A stretch of 64,000 nt of DNA from Sporopachydermia quercuum (lineage: Eukaryota): the NCBI GenBank assembly GCA_001599295.1, contig BCGN01000001.1:1178001-1242000 (forward strand). The letters run 5' to 3'. A model generated the notes under the pieces. The model searched no databases. It was not told the DNA's origin and saw only the letters and a list, made by a program, of their open reading frames with translations. Shown here piece by piece: positions 12,564 to 41,586 of the stretch. How positions within the stretch are numbered: position 1 is the stretch's first letter; every line of letters starts with the position of its first letter. Position numbers and translations under genes: made by a program.

Positions 12564-13618
12564 ATTGGTGTAATGCTTTTGTTTTTAAAGATTGCTGTTT
12601 GTCATTACTTGATAGTTATTCTTTATCGCGCCTAATATGTTTGTTCTACTTATTCAAAGGAAAATGCTATCTGAGTACATATAAACGAAATGAATCAAAC
12701 ATCAGATTGCCAAAGTAAAAGGCAATCCTTTTGATTTGAGCCGTGATACTCTGATTGCGGTCAGATGTGAAGAANAAAAAACTCTTGTCATCACCGACGA
12801 GGTGTTCGAACAGTATAAACTATTGATATCAGAAAAGTAAACAAAAATTATTAGAGAAGAGGCCCGCATCTACGCGGAAGTTAAGTTTCATGCAATACTA
12901 TGCACGTATAGCTTTTTAGGACAGTTCAAGGGGACCATGGGACAAAGTTGCTTCAAAAGAAAATATATTTAGCTGCACTCACTGTTAATGACTGTGTACC
13001 TAGAATAAAATAATTTTATATTATTAGCTGTATATTCTTGAGTTTTATTACTTCCGAAATGTAACCTCAATTAGATCTAATCACTTTCTATTTNAGTGTC
13101 ATGAAGTACATCCTCAGCTTCATTTGCACAATCTTACAGTATCTTGCATATACTTCAATACACTTGCATATCCATCAATTTACTTATTGTTCAGTTTAGT
13201 TCTCTCAAAGAGATCTACACTATACTATCAACCAAAAGAAGAATAGCAATTCCCTACTATTATTCTTATAATGTATACTACTAACATAACAACAATAGTT
13301 TATTTTCGANAATCATGGACTTGTCTTTATTCCTACTTCACAATAAAATCTCAGGAACAGCCCCTTCAACCTCACTAATAAGCGTTTACATAATCTAAAA
13401 ACAATCTTAATCGATCTGATCTGCAAAGCCGTAACCAGAAACAACAACAAAATGGCTATTCATTGAATTCACGTCTGTTGATCTGCATGTTATTTGTTAC
13501 TTAAAAACTATTCTTTTAATCTTTTAAGTCGTGATAAACTTCTTGAATCCACACTCTTTCAAGTTGAAGGAACGTTGATAGCAAAATCAAGTAATTATGG
13601 TTTCAATGAGCTAACAGA

Positions 13619-14384
13619 ATGAGTATAACCTTCTTGTGCATAGCAGTATTGGCTCTGGTGAACATAGTGGTTATTCGGATAGCAATTCTGTTGCCAACTC
13701 TCCAATCTCAACCAGATATAAATAAAACGAAAAGGCATGGAGAACGGACAAAGTTGATGGTTTTCCTTGGGTCAGGAGGCCATACTGGTGAAATGTTCCG
13801 AATGATAGATAAGCTTGATCTCAGTAATTACTTTGAAAGGTATTATATTTACTCTTCAGGCGATAATACATCTAGAGAGAAAGCGGAAAAGTACGAAGAA
13901 CAGAAATGCTCGAAATTGGATGTGGGAGCAAACTCTAGATCTTACAAGCTTTACGAAGTTGTCAGAGCTCGAAAAGTTGGTCAATCATGGATTAGCACAC
14001 CTTTTACTACTGTGATGAGTTTACTGAGTTGTTTGAGGATAGCACTTTTAAGTCCTGAGGTGATCGTTTGTAATGGACCGGGAACAACAGTTCCTTTGTG
14101 TTACCTTTTGTTCTTGTTAAATGTATGTGTGATATGCTTTTCATTTATGAACTAACTTTATGGGAACCGTTAAAGTTTCATTCTGGTACTAACCAAATGG
14201 ATTATAGGTTGTCGGTTCGAATAAAACAAGAATAGTATATATTGAATCTTTGGCTCGGGTGCAATCATTATCATTAACTGGAAAACTTCTTTTGCCAATC
14301 GCCAACAGGTTTATTGTTCAATGGGAACAATTGAGATACAAGTATGGTAAAGGTAGACTAGAGTATTATGGGATCTTAGTTTGA
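13619..14384 (+). CDS. ALG14: UDP-GlcNAc transferase subunit Alg14; exons 13619-14122 and 14208-14384
   Basis: VFLGSGGHTGEM, RARKVGQS, CNGPGT motifs; splicing restores C-terminal IVYIESLARVQSLSLTGKLL...FIVQW. Confidence 0.93.
14123..14207 (+). other. Spliceosomal intron (ALG14), 85 nt
   Basis: GTATGT donor, TACTAAC at 14187-14193, TAG acceptor; phase 0 keeps frame. Confidence 0.92.
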
Positions 14385-15166: not shown

Positions 15167-16086
15167 ATGGTAAGTAGATTGTTGACGGAATAGAAGGAGG
15201 AGATGGGATGGGATCATGATTGATGAATCCGAATTGCTTGAAAGATATATACGAATACGGAACATTAAGAACAGAAAGCGAACAATGGTCAGAACATTCC
15301 TACAAACAATTAAACATTACTAACAGTTACAATTAGGCTCGTATTTTTTTTGTTGGAGGTAACTTCAAGATGAACGGCAGTCTAGCCAGCATCAAGAAGA
15401 TTGTTGATGATTTGAATGCTGCAGATTTACCTTCTAATGTTGAAGTTGTTATCTCACCACCTGCACCTTATCTTGCTTTAGCTGCTGCTGAAAACAAACA
15501 ACCTACTGTTTCTGTTGCTGCTCAAAATGCTTTCAACAAGGCATCTGGTGCTTACACTGGTGAAATCTCAGTTGAAAGCATCAAGGATGTTGGTGCCAAG
15601 TGGGTTATTCTTGGTCATTCTGAACGACGAACTATCATCAAGGAATCTTCTGAATTCATTGCCGACAAGACTAAGTTTGCCCTTGATAATGGCGTTCCTG
15701 TTATCTTATGTATCGGCGAAACTTTGGAAGAACGTCAATCTGGCAAGACTTTGGATGTTTGCAAGTCTCAATTGGAGCCTGTCATTGCTAAGTTGACTGC
15801 TGATGACTGGAAGAACGTTGTCATTGCCTACGAACCTGTCTGGGCTATTGGTACCGGTTTGGCTGCTACCCCTGACGATGCTCAAGAAACCCATAAGGGT
15901 ATTAGAGCTTATTTGAAGGAAAAGCTAGGTGAGGAAATCGCCGAAAGCGTTAGAATCTTGTATGGTGGCTCCGTCAATGGCAAGAATGCTACTACTTTCA
16001 AGGACAAGGCTGATATTGACGGTTTCTTGGTTGGTGGTGCTTCCCTCAAGCCTGAATTCATTGATATTATCAAGAGCAGAATCTAA
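15167..16086 (+). CDS. TPI1: Triosephosphate isomerase; exon 1 is the ATG only (15167-15169), exon 2 15337-16086
   Basis: Spliced N-terminus [41 protein letters not shown] motifs; strongly biased codons. Confidence 0.97.
15170..15336 (+). other. Spliceosomal intron directly after TPI1 ATG, 167 nt
   Basis: ATG|GTAAGT, TACTAAC 15318-15324, TAG|GCT CGT in frame. Confidence 0.93.
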
Positions 16087-20324: not shown

Positions 20325-21005
20325 AATGGAATTTTTCACGTTTTTTTCATATGCTTTTACTTTATAAAAACGTGTATTTTGATCGGTATTTATATTGATA
20401 AGCAGGTCAACTGTAGTGTAGATATAAGCACATGCTTGGTCTTGATGATGTTGATAGACCTATGTAGTAATACAGATTACCATCAAGTATAATAGTAAAT
20501 CAGTACAGCAGCAATGTGTTCTAGTATCAAGACAAATTCCAATAGCCAAACGTCAAAAGAACAAAATGAGGGAAGAGAAAGAAAAAAGAAAAAAGAAAGG
20601 ATGAATAGAAATTAACAAAGAAACAGGCAAAATGAGAAGGATTGTGATAGAACGGAGAACAGAATTAAGGAGAATTAAGCAACAACAAAAAAATAAAATA
20701 AAATAATAAAAAAAGAAGTTAAAGACAAGAAATAGCCAAAAAATAATATAAAAAATAATAATACATATCAATCAAACTGATATACAAAATCGATAGCCCA
20801 ACCAGAAAGAAACAGAAGTATAAGACAGTAAATCAATAAATAATAATAACTAAGTAAATGCATTCATAATTGGCAATAAAAACCATCCTAATAGGTACTT
20901 GATAATTGTTGTGATAGTCCAGTAACAAGACTTAAAAAACAGTAATGACCTGAGACTTATCATTGAATGTTCCCAACGAAGGTTACATCAGAAGAAGTTG
21001 ATCAA

Positions 21006-22115
21006 CTATAGATCAGGGTTTGTAACTTGAAAGATCTTTCTACTGTAGTCAGAAGCGTCAGGTAATGATCCAACAGATAACCTTGAAGTACCTAATACAT
21101 CAGGGTTTAACCTTTGGTCAATAGGGTTAACGTACGTACGATTACTGAATGCGTGATGAGGATCATTACTGATGATAGTCTCGGATATCTGCGTGAGAGC
21201 CTTCTCATCAAATCCGTTGCTGTCTTGATCAGATTGTGGACGACGACGACTGAAATAGGCGTACATTATTATTGCAGCCAGAATAATCACACCAGCAATG
21301 ACACCAACAACTATTCCTGCTATAGCTCCACCAGATAGCCCAGAAGAACTTGAAGACTTTGAAGACTCCTCTACTGTGGTTTCTTGAGAGCCACTGGAAG
21401 CAGATGAAGATGTTGATGTGCTAGTAGAAACTACATCAGCTGTAGAATATACCGATGTGACAATAAGACTAGTTTGAGTATTGGTTACAACTCCGGTCAC
21501 TTCGGAAAGCGATTGGGTGATACTACTGCTTGCAGTAGATGATACTGGTGTCGAGGATGTCATTTTTATCGATGTTGCTTTCAGGGACGAAGAACTAGAC
21601 GTCGATGTTTCAGATGTTGTTTCCTCAGAACTTTCCGATGTCGCAGTGGACAAATCTGAAGATGAGGAAGTAGAACTTGAAGCTCTTGTTCCCTCTTCTG
21701 AAGTAGAGCTCTCCAAACTTTCTGATGAGCTTTGGCCCTCATCTTCATCCGCAATAAAATCCGGCGAGGTATAAACGCTGAATGACGAACTGCCGCCGCA
21801 GTTTTCTTCCGGATATCCATTACAAGTAGTAGTACAACTTCCTGTGCCTGATGAATCCACTAAAGATGAAGGTAATGAACTCCCACAGTAACAACTTCCT
21901 CCGTTAAATGTAGCTGCAACTGAATAGCCTGCTGCATTGCAAGTGTCGCTGCAATACTGTGATGTTTGCCAAGTATAATAATTGTTTTGTGTCAGCAGTC
22001 CCGAGACTTCAGTTTCAGAATAACATCCTAGGTAAGAATAGGTGGCTTGGACAGGTAAGGCTTCAAATGCTGACAAGGCCAAAACCGATAACCAAAACGA
22101 ATTCGTGCTCCTCAT
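21006..22115 (-). CDS. WSC1: WSC-domain cell wall stress sensor (Wsc1/Slg1-like), 369 aa
   Basis: Signal peptide, Cys-rich WSC domain (YLGCY...CYCG...CNGYPEENCGG), Ser/Thr stalk, TM GLSGGAIAGIVVGV, tail DYSRKIFQVTNPD. Confidence 0.85.
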   Translation of the reverse strand: MRSTNSFWLSVLALSAFEALPVQATYSYLGCYSETEVSGLLTQNNYYTWQTSQYCSDTCNAAGYSVAATFNGGSCYCGSSLPSSLVDSSGTGSCTTTCNGYPEENCGGSSSFSVYTSPDFIADEDEGQSSSESLESSTSEEGTRASSSTSSSSDLSTATSESSEETTSETSTSSSSSLKATSIKMTSSTPVSSTASSSITQSLSEVTGVVTNTQTSLIVTSVYSTADVVSTSTSTSSSASSGSQETTVEESSKSSSSSGLSGGAIAGIVVGVIAGVIILAAIIMYAYFSRRRPQSDQDSNGFDEKALTQISETIISNDPHHAFSNRTYVNPIDQRLNPDVLGTSRLSVGSLPDASDYSRKIFQVTNPDL

Positions 22116-24608
22116 TTTGCAAAATCTTTTTGTTTGTTTGTTTCGAATTTATAATATATGCTTTTTGTTTGCCCTAGTATTCAAAGGGTAATATGTGTTG
22201 TTTTATCAAGTGTGCAGCCTTGAGATCAAGTCAAATGTGTGCGCAGGCGAATGTACAACTTAATATTGAGAAGAAATTAAGGAAGAAAGAAAAACAAAGG
22301 AAACATTAACTAGAAAACACTCACTTTCTTACAACAGAATCATTGAGTCAAGTTATTGATTGATATTGATCACTGACTGTCTGTTCATCTGCTAATGTCT
22401 AATAGTATGTATGGTGTTACCAAGATTCCTTTGTGCTTTCTCTATTAGAATTGGTTCATCAACTATCTATGCTGTCTAAATTGTATATGTAATTGACAAA
22501 CTATCCTTCCTCACTCTAACATCTATATATCCTAGTTTTTTGTCTTCAGAGCCAAAGTTATCGATTCTTTTCAATATCTTCAATCTTCTCAACCTCTTTT
22601 ATTACTATGATATCTATTCCTTAACAAGTCATGTTGCTGTTTGCATTGGTTTCGGATTATTATGTGTCGATTCAGTGCTTGTAAACAAACTCATTAAGAT
22701 GAAAATTAAATATTCACATGTAACTGAGCGGTATTGCAATATCCATCTTTTATCTCAAAGTAATAAGGTTAAGGTAAATGAATTTCAGATTTCAGTTTGA
22801 ACTTTTTATAGTAAGGTTTAAACTGTAAGATGAATATCACTTAGTTGGTTGATCTTTGTAGTTGATAGAAAATCCTGTTTGATTGATACAATAAATGCAA
22901 ATCAACTATTAGGCGTTTACTACAAAAATGACCGATTTAATGTGTTCAAAGAAAGTGAAAGCATTGTTACGTTCGGTTATATTCATAAATAAATCAAAAA
23001 CAAAGAACCAAACAGTTTCAATCGTTGCTATGTCGTCAAGCTGTTTCAACAAAACAGCTTTGTTCCCTACAGATTCCATACACGCATCAGTGAAGCGAAA
23101 CCTTAAAAATATCAAAATAGAATTTTGTTCAAGTGCTTTTCACAAGACTCGTTTTTGCTTGATATACGGAAGGAAAGTGGCATCTGGTTTTCAATTGCCA
23201 AAGGAAGATGCAAAGATCGTTAAGGAATCTTTCTCTGAAAGGGTTGTTAGAAGGTGCGGAAAGATAAAAGTAAGAATTCTTCAGTTCAGATTTGGTTCGG
23301 AAGTCAGAAAATTACCTCTCGCAGTAGTCAGATGGTTATCCGATGGTAAATAATGAAGGATATATAGAAGAAATAAGATAATCTGGTACTATTTTCAGCT
23401 TTTCTTTCTAATGAGAAAGGATATCTAAGGAGACAAGTGAGTCAAATGCAAGTTATTTACACTCAATTTCGTTTTGTTGGCATTGTTCTTCATTAGTTAC
23501 TGTTAAATGATTGCTTGTTGATGATGAATACGGAGAAATTGGATTGCTGTGACAATACATCATTAAACCCTTGTAAAATTGTAAGAACAGGTTCAAATTT
23601 ATTCCTCTACATGAAAGTCAAGATGAAATGGAAGGCAATTTGTTCAGAGAGGAGTGGTAGAGTTGAATGAATAATACAATAGAGCATCAGATCGGCAATT
23701 AACAGTCAGCCAACAGTGATTGAAGAAGAGGTAGTGATATAATTGATTTTTTCTGCTGGTTCTCCCTGAAATAAGCGATGTCAAACGTGTTGATATTGAA
23801 TATTGAAGTAGCCTATCATATTGACAAAACTGTTTTCGCTTTCTCAGGCACACTTTCAGTTGTATTTACGCTTATTTCTCATAGGAAAAACTCTTTTTTC
23901 TGATAGTGGTGTTATTGGATTATAATTGTATACCTCACCTCATTCCTTTTCTTTGGAACGTTTTATGAGTTTCCTGGTATTAAACCCAACTAATGAAAGT
24001 TATTAATAAAATCGGAATTAAATAGTTACAAACGAGAAAGCTTTTATTCTATCATCAATCCTGCATGATTATACTATTTAACATATTTTAAATGTATAGA
24101 TCTAGATTGTTGCATTGTTATTACTAGTAAAGGAGCTTTTCATAGTTTCTACTAACGTTGATATCATTTCAGTAAAAAAATGATTATACAATCCAATAAT
24201 AGAATAGGTTCATTAGAAAATGGAGTTCAAAAACTGGCTGGCATTAAGTACAATCTCGTAATAATGATGTATACAGAATAACTTAATCATGAGACATTCC
24301 AAATACATTGGATAGTAGTCTGGAACATTGCTATGACAAGGAATGGGGGGGTAATATATAAATTCCAAACTTGAAATAAGTGGGTCGAGATTTAATTAGC
24401 TATCATGGTTCCAACTCAGNTCACGTTTTGAGTATTAATCCGAGTTTTCCACTATGATGATTAGCGGATGCTAACAAGATAGTATAAACTAGTATAAATA
24501 GAATAAGTGCCGATGTTGTTGCGGGTTTATTAATCCGTGATAACTAGCTATGATATATGTAAACCATCAGAAGCGTACTGAAAAATTCGCAAAGTATTGC
24601 ATGAGACT

Positions 24609-26364
24609 TCATGTTGTGTTAGAAATTATCATGGGTATTGTAATCGTCATGATAATACAAACTCCAACGTAAAAGATATTCAAATGCGACAATTGATCAA
24701 GCGCGTTGTTTTTAATCGAAAAGAAGTTCTTTCCTTTATTTTTGTTTGAATTTTGCTTATGTCTGTTCCTGTCTCGCGTTACTTGATAATTCATCGTTTC
24801 GTCTATTTGTTCAACCATCTTCACTCTTGGTGATTTAAGTTTAGTTTTTCCATCTGCATTAATTATTATATGGTTTGTTGTAAATTTTTCGGGACCTAGA
24901 TTGACATATCTTCCTATCTCTACTTCTACACCAGTATTGATTAGATCATCAGCAATTGATTCAGGAAGTCCCTTTGAAATGTCAAGATTCTCGTACGCAT
25001 CATCGCATGGAACGAACTCTGGCTTCTTTTTTGATGTGATCTTTGAGATGGATGGCTTAGAAGCTTGAGCGTAAATGGTTTTCAGAGTATTGAAGTCAGG
25101 TAGTAGAATTGAATTTCCTTTTTCATCATAATCAACCAATCCATAATTATTTGATTCTTGAGCAAACTCGTAAATAAGCCCTCCACTGAAGACATCAGTC
25201 ATTTCTCTAGAGTAAAGGGCTAAAACTTCTTCAAATAATCTAGGTGTGATTTCGTTGCACCCGTATCTTTTGATAAATCAGTTAATATGGGAACTTGTTT
25301 TCTGAATCAAAAGGATCAAACGTACTCTGATAAAAATACTGGTCGAGAATAATATTCATAATCTTGTACTAGCGTGTCGTATCCACTTGAATGGAAAGTT
25401 TGCGATCCGCACCCTGAAGATGTTAGTCAAACAGAAAATATACAATATTTGATAGCGGCAGCGTAGTAATGACTTCAATCAAATTTAAACAGGGTACTTC
25501 AGACATTGATAGGAATTCACTCCATAAAAGTCCACAGCTTCGGATTCTTCTCCACATTCAAGATATTTGGATAATGAAATACGATATTGTAAATCATCTG
25601 CTGCAGAATAGCCCACAGGTATACTTCTAGGTAAGTTGAAATTGATATAAGCTTTGATATCCCTTATCACACCTTTCATAAAAGTAGAACAAACCTATGT
25701 AAAAAGGGAACATTAGTGTGATGAACATAGTCAAACAAGCTNAATTTGGTATCAGTACTTGTGCAGATCTTCGATCATTAATAACTTCATTTCCAGCGAA
25801 ATAGGCTAAAGTATTGTTGTAATAACCAAACTGTTCGACCACTTGGAAAACATGTTTCATGTAATCGACGTTATATGAGTGCCAGGGGTCATATCTATTC
25901 AAACTTTCGTTGGGACCTGGTGAGTTGANATCAAGAACCAAATATATACCTGCGCTTGCTAAGAGTGTCATACATTGATCGTGATTCAAATTAGGATTTA
26001 CCGAGTAAACACGAATCGTATTGATACCAAGCTCTTGGAACAAGAAAATATCTCGTGCACAATCTTCAATATTTGAGAGAGGGTCCCATGACTCTGATAC
26101 ACCTGATGATCCTCCTGGTTGATAGTCAACTCCACGAATAAAGAACTTTCTAGTTAGTAAATCAGAATCTATCTTGCCCTCGTTTCGCGATCTGATACAG
26201 CATTTTGCTTCTAATTGCTGCTCCTATTAGGTATGTCATACAGGTTCATTAGTAACCACATCAACAAAATATCTACCTCTAATTTCTATTGAATGAATGC
26301 AATATACTGGTAAAACCCAACTGGCCAAAACTACAATGCATTGCAGAAGTAGTTTAGCGCTCAT
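24609..26364 (-). CDS. GAS4: GH72 1,3-beta-glucanosyltransferase Gas4-type (no Cys-box), 5 exons: 26364-26242, 26145-25759, 25694-25505, 25413-25326, 25266-24609; 481 aa
   Basis: Splicing joins signal peptide, [49 protein letters not shown] and hydrophobic C-terminus; closely resembles S. cerevisiae Gas4 as I recall it. Confidence 0.88.
25267..25325 (-). other. GAS4 intron 4, 59 nt, donor GTACGT, branch TATTAAC, acceptor AAG
   Basis: TCA GA|GTACGT...AAAG|A TAC GGG TGC rebuilds catalytic SEYGC. Confidence 0.85.
25414..25504 (-). other. GAS4 intron 3, 91 nt, donor GTCTGA
   Basis: CAA T|GTCTGAAGTACCCT...GACTAACATCTTCAG|GG TGC rebuilds the conserved YQWCG. Confidence 0.85.
25695..25758 (-). other. 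GAS4 intron 2, 64 nt, donor GTACTG, branch CACTAAT
   Basis: CAA|GTACTGATACC...CACTAAT...CATAG|GTT; restores frame between ORF-track fragments. Confidence 0.8.
26146..26241 (-). other. GAS4 intron 1, 96 nt, donor GTATGA, acceptor AAG
   Basis: CCT|GTATGACATACC...TACTAACTAGAAAG|TTC; only this junction gives [11 protein letters not shown]. Confidence 0.85.
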
Positions 26365-26610
26365 TGTGTTCAAATCAAATCAATCCCACTCAACTATTAT
26401 AACTAAATCCAAGCAATTATCTGAACCACTACTGATAGTCAACATTCCTTTGATACGATAAGATAATAGTCTTCTTTCTGATCGCAATACAACTACATCT
26501 ATCCCATATCGTAACTCGTGCCGTATAATAGCGAAATAATAACTGGTGAATTATGAATCAAAACAATACATTATCCATTCCTTCCTTCATGATAGGATGG
26601 ACCCCCACAG

Positions 26611-26619
26611 TTTGTGTCA
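26611..26619 (-). promoter_or_regulatory. Middle sporulation element (MSE)-like site TGACACAAA upstream of GAS4
   Basis: Matches gNCRCAAA core, about 250 bp upstream of GAS4 ATG; single short motif. Confidence 0.4.
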
Positions 26620-26966
26620 ATATTTTTCTATTGAACTTAAAGTTTTGTTTCTGTCATAAGGAACACAATTGAGTAATTTTTGATTAAGTTATTCTTTTGA
26701 AATTGTGGTCAACCGCTATAAACTTTAATGCCTCCCCAAATCAATGTGCCTAAAATGCAAATATTAGTAATGGAAATTGTGTGGGGGTCGAGAATAAGTA
26801 AAAACTCGAAACTACATAAAAAACAAAAATTGTCTTCCAGTGTTGTATCCTGCATTATATTAAGCTCATGTATCAAGGCGATGGGATATTCAAGTAGCAT
26901 TATTTGGTTTGTTGAAAAGAAGCAGAATTTTTAAAGAGAAGAAAAGTGTTTCGAGAATTTTACAAA

Positions 26967-27734
26967 ATGGCATCTCAATTGTTTTCGCTAGAAGGAAAGG
27001 TAGCACTCATAACTGGTGCTACTAGAGGCATTGGTGCTTCTATGGCAATTGCATTGGCAGAAGCTGGAGCATCTATTATTCTTGTTCAGAGAAGTGATAT
27101 TTCTACTACGAAAGCTGGTATTGACAAAACAGGACAAACTGTTAAGATATTGAAAGCTGAACTAGATAATAGAGATGAAGTGAAACAGGTCGTGCCAAAA
27201 GCTGTTGAACTATCACCAACTGGACAGATTGATATTTTAGTTAACTGTGCTGGAATTCAAAGAAGGCATCCTTGCCATGACTTTCCATTAGAAGAATGGG
27301 ATGAAGTCCTTCAAGTCAATTTGACCACACCATTTGTTTTGGCTCGTGACATGGCAGCACATATGATTTCCAAAGGCATTAAAGGAAAGATCATTAACAT
27401 TGCTTCCTTATTAACATTCCAAGGTGGTCTTACTGTTCCTGCTTATGCTGCCTCTAAGGGTGGTATTGGACAATTAACCAAAGCTTTGTCAAATGAGCTT
27501 TCGTCTAAGGGTATCAATGTTAATGCAATAGCTCCTGGTTACATTGACACAGATATGAACACTGCTTTGATTAATGATCCGGTTAGAAGTGAACAAATTA
27601 GTGTTAGAATTCCTGCTGGAAGATGGGGACGTCCTGAAGATTTCAAAGGCCCTGTGGTTTTCCTTGCCAGTCCTGCAAGTGATTATGTCTGTGGTGAAAT
27701 CCTCTTGGTTGATGGGGGATGGATGGGACGTTAA
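26967..27734 (+). CDS. kduD: KduD-like short-chain dehydrogenase (2-dehydro-3-deoxy-D-gluconate 5-dehydrogenase family), 255 aa from ATG 26967
   Basis: TGATRGIG Rossmann motif, NCAGIQRR, KIINIASLLTFQGG, YAASKGG, RIPAGRWG, VDGGWMGR. Confidence 0.8.
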   Translation: MASQLFSLEGKVALITGATRGIGASMAIALAEAGASIILVQRSDISTTKAGIDKTGQTVKILKAELDNRDEVKQVVPKAVELSPTGQIDILVNCAGIQRRHPCHDFPLEEWDEVLQVNLTTPFVLARDMAAHMISKGIKGKIINIASLLTFQGGLTVPAYAASKGGIGQLTKALSNELSSKGINVNAIAPGYIDTDMNTALINDPVRSEQISVRIPAGRWGRPEDFKGPVVFLASPASDYVCGEILLVDGGWMGR

Positions 27735-28653
27735 AAAGTTTGTTACTCACATAAGATAGACGTATCTTTTCATCTATTTTAGTCACGTCTATATTCCATG
27801 CCATATGAGTTCATACTTTCAAACAATCATGTATTATGTNTTTCAACAAAACGTTTCTTTTGAGCTTTTGTATGTTTGGAAGCTATAGATATATATTTGC
27901 GTCAGTGACCTCCCTACATTGATCTCATGCTAGAATTCAATAAACCTGACTATTTGTTGAATTCTAAAAGAGAAGATAAAAACCTTCTCTTTGTCTGCAG
28001 CTGGCTTTTATATACCTCCCAGAATTTATTTTGTCATTCCCATCACATTTTTTTCTCGCTTTTACGTAACCTACAAGTGTCGATAACGTACTTTTATTTT
28101 GTACTCCCAGTCCATATATATCATGTATCAGAATGAAATGATTATTGCCATGAATACTTTTTTGTTTCCTTTTCTCCATATGCTGATAGTTGATAGTTAG
28201 CCGTTAATTTCGGTGAAGTAGAAACAAGCTTTGAATAGAATTTCATAATCATATGCAGGGAAAATCTGTTCTGAATCACGTGATCCAACACTGAATCTCT
28301 TGTTTACTAAACTTAGCATTACATCTCTTATTGTTCACCTGCTATAATGTCTATCTATATAGCATGCGATAAAGAAAGAAACAAAAATATTAAAAAAAAA
28401 TACATTACCTGTTAAGAAGAACACATTCACAATCTACTAGGAACACTTCTGCCTATTAGTTATTCATGTTTTTCATCGAGTGTACTAGCTAGGTCAGAGA
28501 ATCAATTGTTCCTTGTCAGTTTTCCTTCGGTGGCTCACTCAACCTGAGCAGATAGAAAGACAACGGACACGCTCCAGTAAGTAAAGGGAAAAGAAAAGAA
28601 ACTGAATATAAAAGCGTCAAAAACAACCGGCTGAAATACTCTCATAATAAAAG

Positions 28654-30047
28654 ATGGACGAGTCAGATGATGGCGATTATATTGAAAATATAAGTTCTGA
28701 AGGGGAAGGAAACTATGGTATTTCCAAAAGAACCAGAACCAAAACAGATTCTGCTAGTGGGGTGTCAAAAAATTCTGCAGGAAATTACTCATGGGAAGAT
28801 GAATATCAACGAAGTTGGGATATTGTACAGGAAGACGAAGGAGGCACACTGGCAGGAGCTGTTGCAGGATTAGTAGAAGCAAGAAAACGACGCTTACTAA
28901 GAGACGACTCTTCTTTACAAAGAGGAATTATTCGAACAGTGGTTTTAGTTATTGATATGAGTTCCGCAATGAAGGACAAAGATTTACGACCCAACCGATT
29001 TGCTTTGACCATCAATTATGCTATAGAGTTTGTCAATGACTTTTTCGATCAAAATCCTATTTCACAGTTAGGAATACTAGTTATGAAAAATGGAATAGCA
29101 ATAATGATATCAGATGTTGGAAGTAACCCTCATGAGCACGTTGAGCATTTAAGAGATCTTCGATCACAGGATCCTACTGGTGAACCATCATTACAAAATG
29201 CATTGGAAATGGCAAGAGGCTTACTCCTGCATGTTGCTTCACATTGTACGAAAGAGATAATTATGGTATTTGGAGCTTTGCTATCAACAGACCCAGGCGA
29301 TATTAATAAAACTATTCGATGTCTTGTGAGGGAAAAAATAAGAGTGAAAATCATTGGACTAGCAGCACAGGTTGCCATTTGTTCCGAAATAACGAAAAGA
29401 ACCAATTATGGTGATAATAAGAACACCTACGGTGTGATTCTCAATGAATCACATTTTAAAGAATTACTAATGAACCAGGTGACACCCCCTGCCTTATCAA
29501 CAACATCTTCTTTAGCTCAAGAAGGCTATGCATTAGTTAAAATGGGATTTCCTATAAGAGTGTCTGAAGTTTCTCCTTCTTTTTGCTTCTGTCATTCAAA
29601 ACTACGATATGGTGGATTTAGATGCCCTCAATGTAGAGCGAAGATATGTGCTCTACCAACAGCTTGTCCCTGTTGTGGCATAATGTTAATTCTGTCCACT
29701 CATTTGGCTAGATCTCTCCATCATCTACTACCTTTGAAATCATTCAAAGAAGTTCCTCGTAGCGAGTAAGTTTCCGTTTGATGTTAAAGGGAGAAGATAA
29801 AGAATAATAATTATTTGTATTGTTTTGGTATTTAATTACTAACATGATTCTCAATAGAACATACAAATCGACATATTGCTATGGATGTCAAATAAAATTC
29901 CCTACCGAATCCCAAATAAGCTCACGATATGAATGTGAACGCTGTGGACAGCATTTTTGCATAGATTGTGATGTGTTCTGTCATGAAAGTTTACATAATT
30001 GTCCAGGTTGTGAGTCAGGTCTACGGAAGAGCAGACCATTATCCTAA
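28654..30047 (+). CDS. SSL1: TFIIH subunit Ssl1/p44; exons 28654-29765 and 29858-30047; 433 aa
   Basis: vWA domain (FFDQNPISQLG, GEPSLQNALEMA), zinc finger, C-terminal C4C4 RING (CERCGQHFCIDCDVFCHESLHNCPGC). Confidence 0.95.
29766..29857 (+). other. Spliceosomal intron (SSL1), 92 nt
   Basis: GTAAGT, TACTAAC 29837-29843, TAG; phase 2 joins to RING exon. Confidence 0.92.
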
Positions 30048-30405
30048 TGTTGTAAGTAATATCAATTGCATCAACAATTATTGTAATATAAAAGAATATA
30101 TAAAGGGGATATCTAGAAGAAGAAAGATTTACCGATTTCTTTCTGGAAGACACATTTAGAACAACATTCAACATACTGTGGGCAACAGATAATCAGGGAC
30201 ATCTACCATGAAACATGTAAGCATGAATATCTATTATTATTATTATTAATAGAGAAATAAAACATCTGAGAACTAAAAATATTTGTCATTATTCCAATAC
30301 AACCAATTGAAATCCCTATTATTAAGATATTCTTAATACCAACAAACCACCATGATAACCAAAAAAGACCCCAATTAACCCGAACCAATTTATATAATCA
30401 TTCAT

Positions 30406-32199
30406 CTAATTCCAGCCAGATAAAGAGTTATCTTCATTTTTCTTCTTTGGAGTTTTGAACAATAACCTACCAGGCGTATTACCTAACCTAGAAGCGCCAG
30501 AAGTTGCTTTAGGACTGGGAGTAAATATATTCACATAGTCATTCATATTGAAGCCAGATGAAGGCGTACTTGGGAATACCGGTAGATTAATAGGTAACGG
30601 TGTTGAGTTTCTAGGTTTCAAGAACTCATGTTCAGAATCCCAACCGGGGATCTGTTTCCCTCTAGGTGTACCATGTAAAGCAGTAGCAGGTGAAGGGGAA
30701 GTAGCTAGAAACATTAAAAGATCAGCTCCAGTTTCGTCCTCAGCTTTCCTTGGAGTTCTAATTTCAGCTATGTTTGTATATTTTTGAGGTGGAGTATTTG
30801 GAGGGTTAAGATTCTCTTGTTCAGATTGATTGCTTTGCTCGGTTTTGGTAGGTTGCACCCTGGATGGTTTCGTTGGTGTTGGGAAGTTGAACATGGCAGC
30901 ATTCAGGGCAGCCTGAGCAGCAGACTTTTGAGATTTAGCTGATGCAGTGATAGATAAGGAAGAAGAGCTCTTTCTATGTCCTTTTGGTCTTCCACGTTTA
31001 CTCTTAGCACTGTTGGATGGTGTGATGTCATTCGAAGAATCTCCTTCTAGAACACTAGTAATAGAGAGGTTAGAAGTAGAGCTTGGAAGGTTTATTTGAC
31101 GTACTGAGCCAATAGGTCTTGAATTAGAATGAGATCTTTGATGTGACATGGGAGGTCCTTGACGAACAATCGTATCAGGAGAGGATTGAAGGGAAGAGAT
31201 AGAGGAGTTGTTTCTATACATTCTGAAGTCATGAATTGAAGAAGAAGAGCTCTTGTAATAAGGGTTTGATACTGACGCTGCATTTTGAACCATTGACTTG
31301 GAATAAACAACATTATCCATTGAAGGTTGCCTTCTATGGCCTTGAGCATGTGCGATANCCGGTTGAGGTTGTTTACTAATTGACATTGTACGAGCTCTCT
31401 TGCGAACAGGGGGCCCAAATGTTAAACCTGGTCTTAAAGCATCAGCACCATTATTAACAGCAGCAGCAGCAGCAGCTACTGCATTAGACCCACTAGGAGC
31501 ACTGCTATTAATAGTATTCATGAATCCATTAGGTGTTGATGCCAGACTTTTCAGAACAGAATTACTTCCCAGAGACTGCCTTCTGACATTGGAATTCGGT
31601 GTTGTAACAGTTGAAGACACTGGGGTTAAATTCATGGAGGAGTTAGTACTGTACGTGGCAGAGATGGAACTAGAAGTTCTTCTGTGAGTATTAGGACCTT
31701 GAATTGAGATAGAAATAGATTGCTCAGGAGAAGACTTAACCATGGATCGTTGACTCATAGGAGAAGACTCCTCATCATTTTCTTTGTCAATGTTAGTATT
31801 TGAGTCTGAAGAAGCTATTCTGGGTTCTAGATTATCAAGAGCGACCTTCTCCCAGCCATGCTTAGTTTTGAACGATGCTAATGCTAATCTGTTCTTTAAT
31901 TGATGAGTTATTCTTGCAATCTCTGCTCTCTTGAGAACTTTTTCAATGGCCTCTGCTTCTGTTACTTGAGTAGCAACATTTGGTGCATATGAATCTTGAT
32001 TCATCTCTGATGCTTGTGATTGATGTTGAAAAGCTGCAGTAGAAGATGGATGCTGAGATNGATGATAAAACCCAGGCTCTGTTTGAATTCTATGTTGGAA
32101 CTGCATATGAGTAGGAGTCATTGATGAATAATCAGAATTTATAGCAAGGATGGGAGAACCTGTTGCACCNAGATCGTTATTATTATTCATATAGGACAT
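30406..32199 (-). CDS. Whi5/Nrm1/Stb1-like G1/S transcription regulator, 597 aa
   Basis: GTB-like motif LKNRLALASFKTKHGWEKVALDNLE; Stb1-like GADLLMFLATSPSP; many S/T-P sites (TPRK, TPKK). Confidence 0.7.
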   Translation of the reverse strand: MSYMNNNNDXGATGSPILAINSDYSSMTPTHMQFQHRIQTEPGFYHXSQHPSSTAAFQHQSQASEMNQDSYAPNVATQVTEAEAIEKVLKRAEIARITHQLKNRLALASFKTKHGWEKVALDNLEPRIASSDSNTNIDKENDEESSPMSQRSMVKSSPEQSISISIQGPNTHRRTSSSISATYSTNSSMNLTPVSSTVTTPNSNVRRQSLGSNSVLKSLASTPNGFMNTINSSAPSGSNAVAAAAAAVNNGADALRPGLTFGPPVRKRARTMSISKQPQPXIAHAQGHRRQPSMDNVVYSKSMVQNAASVSNPYYKSSSSSIHDFRMYRNNSSISSLQSSPDTIVRQGPPMSHQRSHSNSRPIGSVRQINLPSSTSNLSITSVLEGDSSNDITPSNSAKSKRGRPKGHRKSSSSLSITASAKSQKSAAQAALNAAMFNFPTPTKPSRVQPTKTEQSNQSEQENLNPPNTPPQKYTNIAEIRTPRKAEDETGADLLMFLATSPSPATALHGTPRGKQIPGWDSEHEFLKPRNSTPLPINLPVFPSTPSSGFNMNDYVNIFTPSPKATSGASRLGNTPGRLLFKTPKKKNEDNSLSGWN

Positions 32200-33557
32200 C
32201 CTTAGAGCCTTTCACTTGGATGGTTCCAGATAATTTTCCTTATTCTGATACCAACAAACAAATAGCAAAAGGTTTGTAGGTTTCTCCAGTTGAACGGTCG
32301 ATATAAATTATGGTCCGCCTGAACCAGAGTAAGATACTTGATTGAATTGTAGATTCAATTTTCTTGATGGACAGGAACCAGATGCGATGATCAATACTNA
32401 GTCAATCAGGATATTTTCAATTTAAAGCCAAAAGTGTTATCTTTTGTTCGTTCACTCTTTGTTCATACGAGAGAAGAGATAGCAAAACAGCTAGGTAGTC
32501 GGGGAGTAGGATTGACTAATCTTCTAGTTTGGTAGAGAACCAGTAAAGGAAATATCTCATTAATGATCAAGAACGGTAGTTTTCGATCTGTTCATCGGAA
32601 TTCTGAGAGTGAACTAGACACGAAAGAAGAAGAAAGTCTCTGCTGAAAGAAAGGAAAAGGAACAGGAAAGCTCGTTTGGTGATTACTACAGTGTTTTTAC
32701 CTCATAGGATCCTTCTGGTAGAAAATTAGTTGACAAGATATAAAGACCCCGTCGCGGCCTAATGTAATATTGCCTATTCAAGTAAAGTGGACGCGTTCTT
32801 CGTGTCAGGGTTTCATATAGAAATTCCTATCTAGGAAGGTGAACGAGACACGTCGCGGAACACGAACGCAAAGCTTTTGTTTCTCAAGTAAAGTGGTATT
32901 AAAGGTAAAATGAGACTGAGGTACGGGTGTTATAGAATGCAGTGAAAAGGAGCAATTGTGTAATAAGTAAAGTAGTTCATAAGTAATTGTCAGTAGAGAG
33001 GGTAAGAGAGAAAAGATCATGTCAATATATTATAAGATTTGGTAATAGATAGGTGGTTATCCTTTTAATTTCCATGTGTTTTCAGATTAATACAGTTCTC
33101 AATCACGAACCTCTAGAATCTGATAAGGCTTACGGTATGTACACCTAATGCAGAATGTATGCAGGAGTATGCATTGTAGAATGAAGTTAGTGGATATTTA
33201 GCATCACATCTCCTTACAACAACTGCTGATTGGACTGAGATGTAAGGTCAAATGATATGACGCAAGCCGATAGCTTGTTATAATGGACAGAGAATAATGA
33301 TAGGAAGGTAATTGCAACAGGATTGACAAGGTAACAAACACTATCACAAACCATCGTAAGGCAAATACGCTTAAATTAATAGATAGGAACTCGTAACAGG
33401 TCGTTCAATAAGTATATACATTTCAGGAGATTTCCAGAATAGAATGTAAAAGGGATCTAACTAGAAAACGAAGTTATGATTAGTTATATAATATAAAGAA
33501 AATGATACACAACACAATGACAGATAAATGAATAAAGGCCATTTAACCTCCACTGTT

Positions 33558-34603
33558 TTAGAAGAAGAGCCAGCCAATCAAAAAAGCGATAAAAGCTAAC
33601 AAGGCAGCTGTTGTAACAGGAACACCTTCAATCTTTGAACTTTTGGCAACTTTTTCTTGAGGGGGCTCAACCACAGTTGATCTATCCTTATTAGATTCCA
33701 TCTTTTGATTCAATTGATTAATTCTTTCTTGTGATTTCTTCAATTCACTCTCAACTGTAGGATCAGCAGCCAATGTAGATTTAGTAGTCTGGCCTGGAGA
33801 GTGGAAACCGTTTTCACCATCGGAAGCCGACGAAGCCAAATGAGAGCCACCATGGGCTGCGACAACAGGGGCAGCAGCAGCAGCCGGCTCAACAGGTACA
33901 TGGGATGAAGCCGGAACCGAGCCTTGGTTGGCGGTTGCAACAACAGGAGTTGATTCCTCCTTGGGGCGAAAGTTGTAGACAACCTTGATCTTCTTGTTGA
34001 CGATCTGACCTTTGTTTTCTTGTTCTATCGTTGACCATATTTCATTCAACGGATACTTTGCTTGTTCATCTGAAACAGGAATGGAAACCAAAAGGAACTT
34101 ATCCTTGCAAACGTAATCAGGCGATGGTTCTTCCCTGAATCCTTGCAAAATTACTATGGACTAGTTAGTAGTCATACCTTGGATCAAATATCACACTTTA
34201 TGCAAATGCGGTAAAATCAAAAAAAAATAAAATCATTCCAACGATATATACTTACTAGAAACTTGTACCTCTGCACCTGGCTTCACATAAGCTGAGTTCG
34301 GTCGAACACAGTAGCTAATTTGGTTAGAGCATTAGTCCATAGCCGACCTCATGATCAAACAGACAAGGTCTTAGTATTACCTCTCTAACTAAAGATACAT
34401 ACGTTTTGGGAGCAGTCGTTCGGACTTTGAAGGCATATGTTGTATCTGAACTATTAGAGATAGTGAGCACCTCAGTAGATGATTGCGTGAAAGGTGCTAC
34501 ATGATCTATGTTAGTAGACTAATCAAAAATCAAGCTCAGCAAGCCCAACGCATAGTTATTCTTACGTACCATAAAACTTTAGCGTTCCTGGTGTGACTTC
34601 CAT
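33558..34603 (-). CDS. SCS2: VAP-family ER membrane protein Scs2; exons 34603-34570, 34496-34403, 34314-34256, 34153-33558; 260 aa
   Basis: Spliced MSP domain AFKVRTTAPKTYCVRPN, CKDKFL; C-terminal TM LLAFIAFLIGWLFF. Confidence 0.92.
34154..34255 (-). other. SCS2 intron 3, 102 nt
   Basis: GTAAGT, TACTAAC, TAG; phase 1 into final exon. Confidence 0.88.
34315..34402 (-). other. SCS2 intron 2, 88 nt
   Basis: GTATGT, CTCTAAC or GACTAAT branch, TAG; rebuilds APKTYCVRPN. Confidence 0.88.
34497..34569 (-). other. SCS2 intron 1, 73 nt
   Basis: GTACGT, TACTAAC, TAG; phase 1. Confidence 0.85.
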
Positions 34604-35220
34604 TTTGACTTCAGCTGACTATTTTACTTCCGTGATGTTGATCTTACTGTTAAACGACAAANCCTTTGTTGTATGAATTAACACGCGATTGAATTACTCA
34701 GCACACTCGATTAAACAGTTATCAGTCTCAATATGGTCCTTTTGATCAGAATCAATTCAATGCTGAAAAGGAGCAATCAATTTCTGGATCTACTTCTGAC
34801 TTATAGCTTAAACAGCTTCTGACATTTATTTGATATTTTGATGAATAATGACTTGGTCAATAAAGTCAATAAGAACCGGTTAACTGTTCATTTTTAAGCC
34901 GAATTATCTGGTAAAGCCAACAAGTAGGCATTTGGAGAGTAGAATTAGAAGGGTTCTACTAAGGAGCAAATTAAAGATTACGTTATACTAATAATACTCA
35001 CAAGAATTGAATATGCCGTCATCCTAAAATTAAAAATAAATCTACATTATCTCCGTAATTGTTTTCCTATCATTTCCGTAAATAGATAGAAGTGAAGTAA
35101 ATGTGGAGTAAATGTGAGGTAAATATGGATGGAAAATCGAAGTACGGAGTACGAAAACTCATTATTACTAGTATGAAAACATAATAAACAATTTATTGGA
35201 GTTGTATATAAACACTAAAC

Positions 35221-39960: not shown

Positions 39961-41586
39961 ATGTCATTCAAAAGATTGAGTGGCATTACTAGCTTGAGAT
40001 CAACTATCCGATCAAACAGTTTAAAAATGCCATTAAAAGCAAGAATGAGTACTAGTGCATTACCAAACGTAAGTAATGGAAAGAACATAAAAGGCAACTG
40101 ATCAAATTTGGAGAATCGATTGATGGATTGCCTGATTTTCTGGCTTTTGTTTTTCTTATCTTCTAGTTCCTGATGAGTATTGTAGATGAAATGTGTCATA
40201 CTAACATTGGAATAGAGTCTAGCCTTCGAAGAGGATGCTGATGATGTTCTCTTCAAGGTCAATGGAGTAGTTCGTACTGTTGAGTTGAATAGACCAAAAA
40301 AATTAAACTCACTGAACTATTCAATGGCCAATAAGATTTTACCAAGACTGGTTGAATATGCAAAATCAGATTTGGCCAAGATCATTGTGCTTAAAGGTAA
40401 TGGTGGTAAAGCATTATGTGCTGGTGGTGATGTTGCAGCTCTTTCAAAATTGAATGCTCAAGGACCAGAAGGTAGTAAATTATCAGCCGACTACTTTCAG
40501 AAGGAATATTCGTTAGATTTGTTGATTGCAACATATTCTAAGCCTTATGTTGCTATCATGGATGGTATCACCATGGGTGGAGGATGCGGTTTGAGTATTC
40601 ACGCTCCATTCAGAGTGGCCACTGAAAAGACAAATGTTGCAATGCCAGAAATGGCTATTGGATTTTTCCCTGATGTTGGGGCAACATTTTTCTTACCAAG
40701 ATTAGATGGTAAATTGGGCTATTATCTTGCCTTAACTGGTCAATCATTAAAAGGTGTTGATGCATTAGTTGCAGGATTTGCTACTCATTATGTTCCATCA
40801 GAAAGATTAGCAGACTTAGAAGCAAAACTTGCAGCATTAGAAGCTCCATTTTCTCCCGAACTGGACGAATATTTCTCAATTGTAAATGATACAATTGCAG
40901 ATTATACTGAAAGTATTCCTGAAGATTATGAATTTTCAATTACTGATGCCCAAAGAGATCTTATAGATAAAGCATTCAGCCAAAAGACTGTTGAAGGAAT
41001 CGTTGACTACTTGAAGAAATCAGAAGTGGAACAAGAGTTTGCTACAAAAACCGTTGAATCCCTTTTAGAGCGTAGTCCATTGTCACTAAAGGTTTCATTG
41101 GCCCTTCTTCATAGAGCTGAAGAATTAGATATTACGGTTGCATTAGAACGTGAATTAGAAACAGCAGAGAGTTTCATGTACAAGTCAGATTTCACTGAGG
41201 GTGTTGACGCCAAGCTACTTTCAAAACCTGCCCGCAAGCCAAATTGGAATCCTGCAACCCTCTCCGATGTTACATCAGAGATTGTTCAGTCATATTTAAA
41301 GCCAATGCCAGACACTTCTGTTNCTCCTCTCGATACTTTCACTGATAAGACTTACGATGAGTACCCATATAACTTCGGATTACCAACTGAAAAGGAAGTG
41401 AGATCATACATTACAGGGGAAGATAAATCAAATAGACGTTACTTGCCCACCAAGGATGAAGTTGTGAAGGAGTTTGCAAATAGAACCAAGAACAAGAATG
41501 GTGCCAAATGGAAGGTCAACAATATTTTGAAGAGAAAATCTGCTCCTTCGGAATATGAACCTTCTTATATTGATTGGGTTGACTAA
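39961..41586 (+). CDS. EHD3: 3-hydroxyisobutyryl-CoA hydrolase-like mitochondrial protein; exons 39961-40068 and 40216-41586; 492 aa
   Basis: Basic presequence-like exon 1; LNRPKKLNSLN, CAGGDV, MDGITMGGG, AMPEMAIGFFPDVG, DFTEGV. Confidence 0.9.
40069..40215 (+). other. EHD3 intron, 147 nt
   Basis: GTAAGT, TACTAAC 40199-40205, TAG; phase 0. Confidence 0.9.

What the first reader, a model, noticed from the sequence alone, without database searches (positions are those of the whole stretch)
25267..26241. GAS4 introns pair deviant 5' splice sites with a shared TACC motif: candidate meiosis-regulated (Mer1-like) splicing switch
Seen in sequence: protein conservation forces donors GTATGA (intron 1), GTACTG (intron 2) and GTCTGA (intron 3). 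Each is followed by TACC at +8/+9 (GTATGACATACCT, GTACTGATACCA, GTCTGAAGTACCCT). The ten other introns I reconstructed (ALG14, TPI1, SSL1, SCS2 x3, MAP2, EHD3, UBP14, GAS4 intron 4) all have GTAHGT donors and none has TACC near the donor. Established: S. cerevisiae GAS4 is sporulation-specific, and Mer1 activates meiotic introns with weak splice signals through an intronic AYACCCUY enhancer near the 5' splice site. Inference: this lineage may gate spore-wall gene expression by a triple splicing lock using a Mer1-like or convergent factor, on a gene not known to me as a Mer1 target.
Basis: partly seen in the sequence, partly recalled or inferred. Interest (0 to 1): 0.85.

Follow-up and report, generated by a model that had tools for sequence, protein, structure and literature searches.

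The report
Weak GAS4 introns sharing UACC motif
A budding-yeast spore-wall enzyme gene is split by four short introns, three of which have very poor start signals followed at a fixed distance by the same four letters, a pattern that resembles the known meiosis-only splicing switch of baker's yeast but has not been tested on RNA.

Summary
On the minus strand lies an intact five-exon GH72 gene whose best named relatives are Gas4. All four junctions align without gaps to 22 of 22 orthologs, which fixes the donors as GTATGA, GTACTG, GTCTGA and GTACGT. TACC starts at +9, +8 and +9 of the three deviant introns. It is absent from the first 30 nt of the 10 introns with GTAHGT donors. GAS4 signals are weak overall: 8 of 12 deviate, against 2 of 27 in the nine other introns.

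Chance is unlikely but not excluded. Three random GT-anchored stretches share some 4-mer at near-equal offsets with P about 0.004.

The shared A/G-U-A-C-C is the part of the Mer1 enhancer AYACCCUY that mutagenesis showed to matter. MER1 homologs are reported beyond Saccharomycetaceae. Against this, no intron matches the full consensus, only one has CCC, and the motif lies much nearer the donor than in S. cerevisiae.

Not testable here: no RNA run was listed, no whole genome is held, and no close relative was found. So splicing behaviour, presence of Mer1 and conservation of the motif all remain open.

Verdict: a real, non-trivial sequence pattern and a plausible, unproven Mer1-type conditional splicing element.

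The parts
26242..26364 (-). GAS4-like exon 1 (ATG 26364-26362; signal-peptide-like N-terminus, ends ...VTNEP)
26146..26241 (-). intron 1, 96 nt: donor GTATGA, branch TACTAAC (26159-26153), out-of-frame TAG 4 nt after the branch A, in-frame acceptor AAAG
26229..26234 (-). ATACCT element of intron 1 (TACC = +9..+12)
25759..26145 (-). exon 2 (GH72 profile 28-153; contains the AGNE motif)
25695..25758 (-). intron 2, 64 nt: donor GTACTG (or GTA-C-TGA with a bulge), branch CACTAAT (25718-25712), acceptor ATAG; N at 25742
25748..25752 (-). ATACC element of intron 2 (TACC = +8..+11)
25505..25694 (-). exon 3 (GH72 profile 156-216), ends in the first base of the invariant Trp codon
25414..25504 (-). intron 3, 91 nt: donor GTCTGA, branch GACTAAC (25428-25422), acceptor TCAG
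25490..25497 (-). GTACCCTG element of intron 3 (TACC = +9..+12); best match to AYACCCUY (6 of 8). It can also pair over 8 bp with CAGGGTGC at 25416-25409, across the 3' splice site
25326..25413 (-). exon 4
25267..25325 (-). intron 4, 59 nt: consensus-type donor GTACGT, branch TATTAAC, acceptor AAAG; no TACC
24609..25266 (-). exon 5 with stop TGA 24611-24609 (GH72 profile 247-313, SEYGC motif split by intron 4, hydrophobic C-terminal tail)

Best explanation
This is the intact Gas4 ortholog (a GH72 beta-1,3-glucanosyltransferase) of an AT-rich, fairly intron-rich budding yeast. Its four short introns carry systematically poor splice signals.

Three donors can form only about 3-4 base pairs with the U1 snRNA 5' end. 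Each is followed, 7-8 nt into the intron, by A/G-U-A-C-C.

My preferred reading is that this element is a donor-proximal intronic splicing enhancer. A KH-domain activator of the Mer1 type would read it and help U1 snRNP engage the weak donors. Mature GAS4 mRNA would then be made efficiently only when that activator is present, most plausibly during sporulation, when a spore-wall glucan-remodelling enzyme is needed.

Shown here: the gene model, the forced donors, the motif and its position, and the contrast with the other introns of the window.

Inferred: that the motif acts in splicing, that its reader is Mer1-like, and that splicing is conditional.
For: (1) The junctions are fixed by gap-free alignment to 22 of 22 orthologs and by continuous Pfam GH72 coverage.

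(2) GAS4 introns are weak as a set. Donors deviate in 3 of 4, branch points in 3 of 4, and 2 of 4 acceptors are AAG. That is 8 of 12 signals, against 2 of 27 in the nine other introns (Fisher 2.8e-4). Qiu et al. describe the same syndrome for SPO22 and MER3: non-consensus 5'SS, GACUAAC or AACUAAC branch, AAG acceptor (PMC3082912, passages).

(3) TACC occurs at +8/+9 in 3 of 3 deviant-donor introns and in 0 of 10 consensus-donor introns (P = 0.0035). The background rate is 39 of 6509 GT sites. A shared 4-mer of any kind has P = 0.0036.

(4) Mutagenesis of the SPO22 enhancer: GCC and CGC variants were dead, UCC reduced splicing to 52% against 86% for the wild type, and CUC and CCU were as good as wild type (PMC3082912, section 17). 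So AYACC plus a flexible next base is the working core, and it is what the three introns share: AUACCU, AUACCA, GUACCC.

(5) The exons are intact and the conserved AGNE and SEYGC motifs are kept. The gene is under selection, so donors this poor call for some compensating feature.

(6) MER1 homologs are reported outside Saccharomycetaceae (PMC8567612, passages; PMC3082912, section 18).

(7) S. cerevisiae GAS4 is repressed in vegetative cells and induced in sporulation (PMC3084680, abstract and passages).
Against: - No intron carries the full AYACCCUY. Matches are 5 of 8, 5 of 8 and 6 of 8. Only intron 3 has the CCC triplet, and CCA (intron 2) was never tested.
- The element starts at +7/+8. The S. 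cerevisiae enhancers lie 18-25 nt from the 5'SS (PMC11585973, passage).
- The comparison set is small: 10 introns from one 64-kb window.
- The intron 3 element can instead be read as one arm of an 8-bp helix across the 3' splice site.
- No CRCAAAW element lies between the GAS4 ATG and the neighbouring gene, so nothing in the promoter points to sporulation-specific transcription.
- The known Mer1 regulon is four genes and does not include GAS4. The S. cerevisiae Gas4 ortholog and three of the four metagenome loci are continuous open frames without introns.
- The window's lineage could not be placed. Its Gas4 branch is unresolved (64/14 support) and its Gcn20 is at most 72% identical to any protein found. 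Whether it falls inside the clade with known MER1 homologs is therefore open.
Confidence: 0.4

Rival explanations
1. The weak signals matter but TACC is incidental. GAS4 splicing would be tuned by how much free spliceosome is available, as when ribosomal-protein gene transcripts fall on starvation or sporulation. Or it is simply inefficient in a weakly expressed gene under relaxed selection on splice signals.
For: All three kinds of signal are degraded in GAS4, not only the donors. In S. cerevisiae, introns with non-consensus sites gain most when ribosomal-protein gene expression drops, and several meiotic introns are regulated without a Mer1 site (PMC5570110 and PMC3082912, passages). With post hoc freedom, a shared 4-mer in any 3 of 4 introns has P = 0.014.
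Against: TACC is a rare word in this AT-rich DNA (0.29% of positions). It sits within 1 nt of the same offset in exactly the three deviant introns and nowhere else in them. For a pre-named word the chance is about 2e-7.
Confidence: 0.3
2. The element works in splicing but is not a meiotic switch. It would be a constitutive compensating feature, read by a general C-rich-binding KH protein or a U1 snRNP protein, or acting through RNA structure such as the intron 3 helix that joins the donor-proximal region to the 3' splice site.
For: The intron 3 GUACCCUG pairs with CAGGGUGC across the acceptor, 8 bp. At +7 to +13 the element abuts the U1-donor duplex, nearer than any Mer1 site described (PMC11585973, passage). 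The PCBP2 KH domain binds ACCCT (PMC3082912, section 18), so C-rich readers are not unique to Mer1.
Against: Shuffling the +7..+26 stretch gives a helix of 8 bp or more in 8% of trials. Intron 4, which lacks TACC, has one too. Introns 1 and 2 show no comparable pairing of the element. None of the three folds is more stable than shuffled sequence.
Confidence: 0.2
3. The gene is not expressed as modelled. It is either a young pseudogene whose splice sites have decayed, or the real mRNA uses other junctions.
For: Donors GTACTG and GTCTGA depart from GTAHGT, the only donor type seen in the 10 other introns of this window. No transcript evidence exists.
Against: There is no stop or frameshift in 1443 coding bases. 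The conserved motifs are kept, and all four junctions fit 22 of 22 orthologs without gaps. Decay confined to three 6-nt donors while about 1.4 kb of exon stays clean is improbable. No other GT..AG pair restores the frame.
Confidence: 0.07

Closest known systems
Mer1/Nam8-dependent meiotic introns of S. cerevisiae (MER2/REC107, MER3/HFM1, SPO22/ZIP4, AMA1/SPO70)
   Same: [quoted passage not shown] There are extra weak signals: a GACUAAC-type branch and an AAG acceptor. The host gene acts in the meiosis/sporulation programme. The shared A/G-U-A-C-C equals the mutationally essential part of AYACCCUY (PMC3082912, sections 17-18 and passages).
   Different: The full 8-mer is absent and CCC occurs in only one of three. 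The element starts 7-8 nt from the donor, not 18-25 nt (PMC11585973). There are three such introns in one gene instead of one. The target is a spore-wall enzyme, not a recombination or APC gene. The lineage is outside Saccharomyces. The Mer1 protein, Nam8 dependence and meiotic timing are untested.
Mer1-independent regulated meiotic introns and spliceosome competition (PCH2, SAE3; Swi/Snf and ribosomal-protein gene down-regulation)
   Same: Suboptimal branch points and splice sites make splicing sensitive to cell state without a dedicated enhancer (PMC3082912; PMC5570110, passages).
   Different: Those introns have no shared donor-proximal word. PCH2 has a perfect 5' splice site.
PCBP2-type KH domain bound to ACCCT (PDB 2P2R, as cited in PMC3082912)
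   Same: It is the structural model for how a single KH domain reads an A-C-C-C/U stretch like the one shared here.
   Different: It is a human poly(C)-binding protein with no role in yeast splicing. No KH protein of this yeast could be examined.
S. cerevisiae GAS4 (YOL132W) and GAS2
   Same: The best named hits of exon 2 are Gas4 proteins. The S. cerevisiae 471-aa protein is 72% identical over exon 2 and 56% over 396 aligned residues. The gene is GH72 with no other Pfam domain in exon 5. The S. cerevisiae genes are sporulation-specific and needed for spore wall assembly (PMC3084680).
   Different: The S. cerevisiae protein is found as one continuous frame, whereas this gene has four introns. 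Expression timing in this yeast is unknown.

Membership tests
Mer1-regulated intron (S. cerevisiae type) | Non-consensus 5' splice site | tested here: met
   GTATGA, GTACTG and GTCTGA, against GTAHGT in 10 of 10 other introns
Mer1-regulated intron (S. cerevisiae type) | Intronic enhancer matching AYACCCUY with the CCC triplet | tested here: not met
   AUACCUAA 5 of 8, AUACCAAA 5 of 8, GUACCCUG 6 of 8; CCC only in intron 3. The core AYACC is present in two and GUACC in one. CCU was functionally equal to CCC in SPO22 (PMC3082912, section 17).
Mer1-regulated intron (S. cerevisiae type) | Enhancer close to the donor (within 25 nt; 18-25 nt in the review) | tested here: inconclusive
   It lies within 25 nt but starts at +7/+8, much nearer than described (PMC3082912; PMC11585973).
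Mer1-regulated intron (S. cerevisiae type) | A Mer1 protein (N-terminal activation module plus C-terminal KH domain with the Arg214 and Gln243 equivalents) encoded in the genome | not testable with these tools
   No whole genome is held. No KH domain was found among 31 large and 142 small ORFs of the window. Homologs are reported in other families (PMC8567612; PMC3082912).
Mer1-regulated intron (S. cerevisiae type) | Splicing efficient only in meiosis and dependent on Mer1 and Nam8 | not testable with these tools
   There are no RNA data for this organism in the tools; an experiment is needed.
GH72 glucanosyltransferase, Gas4 orthogroup | Glyco_hydro_72 domain over its full length | tested here: met
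   PF03198 E = 2e-52, 4e-21 and 4e-23 for exons 2, 3 and 5, covering profile positions 28-313 of 314
GH72 glucanosyltransferase, Gas4 orthogroup | Closest to Gas4 rather than to other Gas paralogs | tested here: inconclusive
   The best 120 of 591 hits include those named Gas4 or YOL132W from Saccharomyces, Zygosaccharomyces, Nakaseomyces and Candida. No S. cerevisiae Gas1, 2, 3 or 5 appears among them. Fragments named GAS4 outrank those named GAS5. No tree with the other paralogs was made, and no reciprocal test against this genome's own second GH72 gene (seen) was possible.
GH72 glucanosyltransferase, Gas4 orthogroup | Catalytic glutamates kept (in the AGNE and SEYGC motifs; their catalytic role is recalled, not tested) | tested here: met
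   Both motifs are conserved in the alignment with 22 orthologs.

The most novel reading that the evidence does not exclude
A budding yeast outside Saccharomycetaceae gates a spore-wall glucan-remodelling enzyme by a triple splicing lock. Three introns in one gene have donors too weak to work alone. Each would be rescued by a short RUACC enhancer abutting the U1 binding site and read by a Mer1 ortholog or a convergent sporulation-specific KH protein. The Mer1 regulon would then be older, differently wired and differently spaced than the four-gene S. cerevisiae set.
Probability: 0.3. Interest if true: 0.75.

Novelty: new variant of a known kind. Interest (0 to 1): 0.5.

Why it matters
Regulated splicing in budding yeasts is known almost only from S. 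cerevisiae. There, Mer1 controls four introns, and how it helps U1 at weak donors is still unclear.

If this reading holds, it gives a second, independent example in a distant yeast. It differs in target (a spore-wall enzyme), in spacing (7-8 nt) and in number (three regulated introns in one gene). That would show how the regulon evolved. It would also supply natural variants of enhancer sequence and spacing for mechanistic work.

If the reading fails, the gene is still a compact natural test set. It holds four introns side by side, graded from near-consensus to very poor, and can show how weak a yeast 5' splice site may be and still work.

Tried and rejected
- **RNA evidence.** The look-up of sequencing runs listed 5 runs, and no RNA holder was listed. 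Expression and splicing could not be examined.
- **Sequencing error at the donors.** Rejected. Contigs of X1 and X3 show no other letters over 20720-35000, though both may be the source of the window.
- **Whole genome.** None is held, so there was no genome-wide motif test and no search for Mer1 or Nam8.
- **Close relatives.**
  - Exon 2 against longer proteins: best hit 76% identical.
  - The 198-aa frame that reads from exon 2 into intron 2, tried in order to catch exon-sized frames of relatives that would translate the donor region: best hit 63%.
  - Gcn20: best hit 72%.
  - No same-species or sister-species protein turned up.
- **Metagenome scan**: 4 loci. L001 (67%) and L002 are intronless. 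L003 and L004 have one GTAAGT intron, four codons away from the position of intron 3, in a GC-rich fungus. None is informative.
- **Earlier notes of this scan:** nothing on this genome.
- **Other weak-donor-plus-YACC introns in the window.** A frame-aware scan gave 123 candidate rows, and apart from GAS4 none looked convincing on inspection. Of 142 small ORFs in the inter-gene gaps, none passed Pfam's curated cut-off.
- **U12-type introns.** Considered because RTACC resembles RTATCCTT. Rejected, because a donor at that place breaks the frame, and intron 1 would then carry an in-frame TGA.
- **Donor sequestered in a hairpin, or TACC pairing with the donor.** The stems are 3-5 bp with very small loops, and the folds are no more stable than shuffles.
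- **Middle-sporulation element in the promoter.** No CRCAAAW lies in 26365-26966.
- **snRNA or tRNA genes in the window**, to read the U1 5' end: none found.
- **Lineage placement by a Gas4 tree:** unresolved.
- **Supplements.** I opened no supplementary files. Table S3 and Fig. 3 of PMC8567612 may list which species carry MER1.

Full report
**What is there**

Reading the minus strand of 24400-26450 and joining frames gives a five-exon gene of 481 codons.
- It begins with a signal-peptide-like N-terminus and ends in a hydrophobic tail.
- Exons 2, 3 and 5 each hit Pfam Glyco_hydro_72 (E = 2e-52, 4e-21, 4e-23). The hits cover consecutive profile positions 28-153, 156-216 and 247-313 of 314.
- Exon 2, searched against longer proteins, found 591 proteins with E <= 1e-10 among 715 candidates. 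Of the best 120 listed, those with informative names are mostly Gas4 or YOL132W. The top identity is 76%.
- I fetched 22 of these. The spliced protein is 49-59% identical to them, and it aligns at all four junctions without a gap in 22 of 22.
- Moving a junction by one or two bases loses GT..AG.
The AAAG ending at 26146 is the in-frame acceptor. The same TACTAAC-TAG arrangement, with the TAG skipped, occurs in SCS2 intron 3.

**Is the DNA right?**

Contigs of two DNA runs from two studies lie on 20720-35000 with no other letters. Both are flagged as possible sources of the window, so this rules out a local assembly slip but is not independent confirmation. Another contig of the same runs lies on 25966-26033 with 12 other letters, so the genome has at least one more GH72 gene.

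**The comparison set**

I rebuilt the other introns of the window from frames, Pfam hits and signal scans.

| Intron | Coordinates or donor position | Donor |
|---|---|---|
| ALG14 | 14123-14207 | GTATGT |
| TPI1 | 15170-15336 | GTAAGT |
| SSL1 | 29766-29857 | GTAAGT |
| EHD3 | 40069-40215 | GTAAGT |
| UBP14 | 42220-42343 | GTATGT |
| MAP2 | from 36570 | GTAAGT |
| SCS2 i1 | from 34569 | GTACGT |
| SCS2 i2 | from 34402 | GTATGT |
| SCS2 i3 | from 34255 | GTAAGT |
| GAS4 i4 | 25325-25267 | GTACGT |

- All ten donors are GTAHGT. Only one of these introns holds a TACC at all, at +43.
- In 142 small ORFs from the inter-gene gaps, no further exon fragments passed Pfam's curated cut-off.
- GAS4 is weak beyond its donors. 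Its branch points are TACTAAC, CACTAAT, GACTAAC and TATTAAC. Its acceptors are AAG, TAG, CAG and AAG.
- The nine introns of other genes have TACTAAC in 7 of 9 and TAG in 9 of 9.
- In total, 8 of 12 GAS4 signals deviate, against 2 of 27 elsewhere (Fisher 2.8e-4).

**The motif and chance**

TACC starts at +9, +8 and +9.

| Test | Result |
|---|---|
| TACC count in the window, both strands | 367 in 128,000 positions |
| GT sites followed by TACC at +8 or +9 | 39 of 6509 |
| Three hits for a word named in advance | about 2e-7 |
| Three random GT-anchored stretches share any 4-mer, offsets within 1 nt, between +7 and +25 | 0.0036 |
| The same, for a 4-mer with two or more G/C | 0.00056 |
| The same, for any three of four stretches | 0.014 |

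The pattern is unlikely to be chance.

The donors also resemble each other: GTATGA, GTCTGA, and GTACTGA, which reads as GTA-TGA with one bulged C.

**What the literature adds**

- Qiu, Schwer and Shuman (PMC3082912; abstract, passages and sections 17 and 18 read):
  - Mer1 targets combine a non-consensus 5'SS with AYACCCUY within 25 nt.
  - GCC and CGC variants of the SPO22 enhancer do not respond. UCC reduced splicing to 52%, against 86% for the wild type. CUC and CCU are as good as wild type, and CCG is partly active.
  - The working core is thus A-Y-A-C-C with a tolerant next base. That is what introns 1 and 2 have (AUACCU, AUACCA). Intron 3 has GUACCCUG.
  - The KH domains of proteins from Debaryomyces hansenii and Pichia pastoris are aligned with Mer1.
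- Papaioannou et al. (PMC8567612, passages) report syntenic MER1 homologs in Phaffomycetaceae, Ascoideaceae and Saccharomycopsidaceae.
- Rolli et al. (PMC3084680, abstract and passages) state that GAS2 and GAS4 are repressed in growth, induced in sporulation and needed for the spore wall.
- A review (PMC11585973, passage) places the S. cerevisiae enhancers 18-25 nt from the donor, whereas here the element begins at +7/+8.
- Venkataramanan et al. (PMC5570110, passages) show that weak meiotic introns also gain when ribosomal-protein gene transcripts fall. That is a route to conditional splicing needing no enhancer.
- A search for Mer1 together with GAS4 found one unrelated paper. Searches turned up no description of Mer1-dependent introns outside Saccharomyces.

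**What could not be done**

- No RNA holder was listed for this DNA, and no genome is held.
- No close relative was found in the protein collection or in the metagenome contigs. There, two Gas4-like loci are intronless, and two share one ordinary intron at a different position.
- The lineage is about equally distant from Pachysolen, Ascoidea, Ogataea, Scheffersomyces, Wickerhamomyces and Saccharomycetaceae, with Gcn20 at 68-72%. Its Gas4 branch is unresolved, with support 64/14.
- I therefore cannot say whether this yeast lies inside the clade with reported MER1 homologs.

**Rivals examined**

- Structure. The intron 3 element pairs over 8 bp with the acceptor region. However, 8% of shuffles do as well, intron 4 has a similar helix, and none of the folds beats shuffled sequence.
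- Hairpins that hide the donors are too small to count.
- A U12-type reading breaks the frame.
- Pseudogene decay does not fit 1443 clean coding bases.
- The promoter has no CRCAAAW element, so nothing independent points to sporulation-specific transcription.

**Verdict**

- The reading as a Mer1-type conditional splicing element is the best single explanation (0.4). It matches the functional core of the known enhancer and the whole syndrome of weak signals.
- It fails the strict consensus test, has a different spacing, and lacks any RNA, protein or comparative evidence.
- Rivals: weak signals tuned by spliceosome availability with an incidental motif (0.3); a constitutive compensating element or structure (0.2); a wrong or dead gene model (0.07).
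- One RT-PCR experiment in vegetative and sporulating cells would settle the main question.

Noticed in passing
window 26153-26146 and 34170-34154 (minus strand): Both GAS4 intron 1 and SCS2 intron 3 have TACTAAC followed at once by TAG, 4 nt after the branch A. That TAG must be skipped for the frame. SCS2 intron 1 uses an acceptor only 5 nt after the branch A. So branch-to-acceptor distances in this yeast are very short, and the cut-off seems to lie between 4 and 5 nt.
   Followed up: partly
window 7416-9275 and 10557-12584 (minus strand): Two neighbouring large ORFs (619 and 675 aa) both carry a Rap1 C-terminal domain, and the first also has a BRCT domain. This looks like a tandem pair of RAP1-like genes.
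   Followed up: no
window 51860-56703: A 4.8-kb stretch has no ORF of 90 aa or more, no Pfam hit in its small ORFs, no Rfam or tRNA match and no repeats. It has the lowest G+C of the window, 0.32-0.33. This is unusual for a compact yeast genome. A centromere-like or otherwise special region is one possibility.
   Followed up: partly
whole window: The middle-sporulation-element core CRCAAAW occurs 18 times, against 49 +/- 6 in dinucleotide-preserving shuffles; all 100 shuffles had 18 or more. The word is strongly depleted.
   Followed up: no
window 61483-61297 (minus strand): GTATGT, then TACTAAC about 148 nt on, then TAG, lying upstream of the 690-aa LIM-domain ORF with no coding exon before it. 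This is a possible 5'-UTR intron. It was not counted in the intron census.
   Followed up: partly
window 46415-46394 (minus strand): TACTAAC plus TAG lies just upstream of the ATG of the DAHP synthase gene. No GTAHGT donor lies within 500 nt upstream. It is either chance or a 5'-UTR intron with an unusual donor.
   Followed up: partly
window 9577-9562 (minus strand): GTATGTTGAATACCCA, a consensus donor followed by ATACCC at +10, lies in the upstream region of the first RAP1-like gene. No coding evidence shows that it is an intron.
   Followed up: partly
window 51008-51859 (minus strand): A 283-aa ORF has a bacteriorhodopsin-like domain, E = 6e-16. It is a fungal opsin or a heat-shock-membrane-protein relative.
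   Followed up: no
whole window: The window holds 65 N's, mostly single and scattered, with small clusters near 4714-4726 and at 48115-48119. Two fall in GAS4: 25929 in exon 2 and 25742 in intron 2 at +17. The laid contigs report no differences there.
   Followed up: partly
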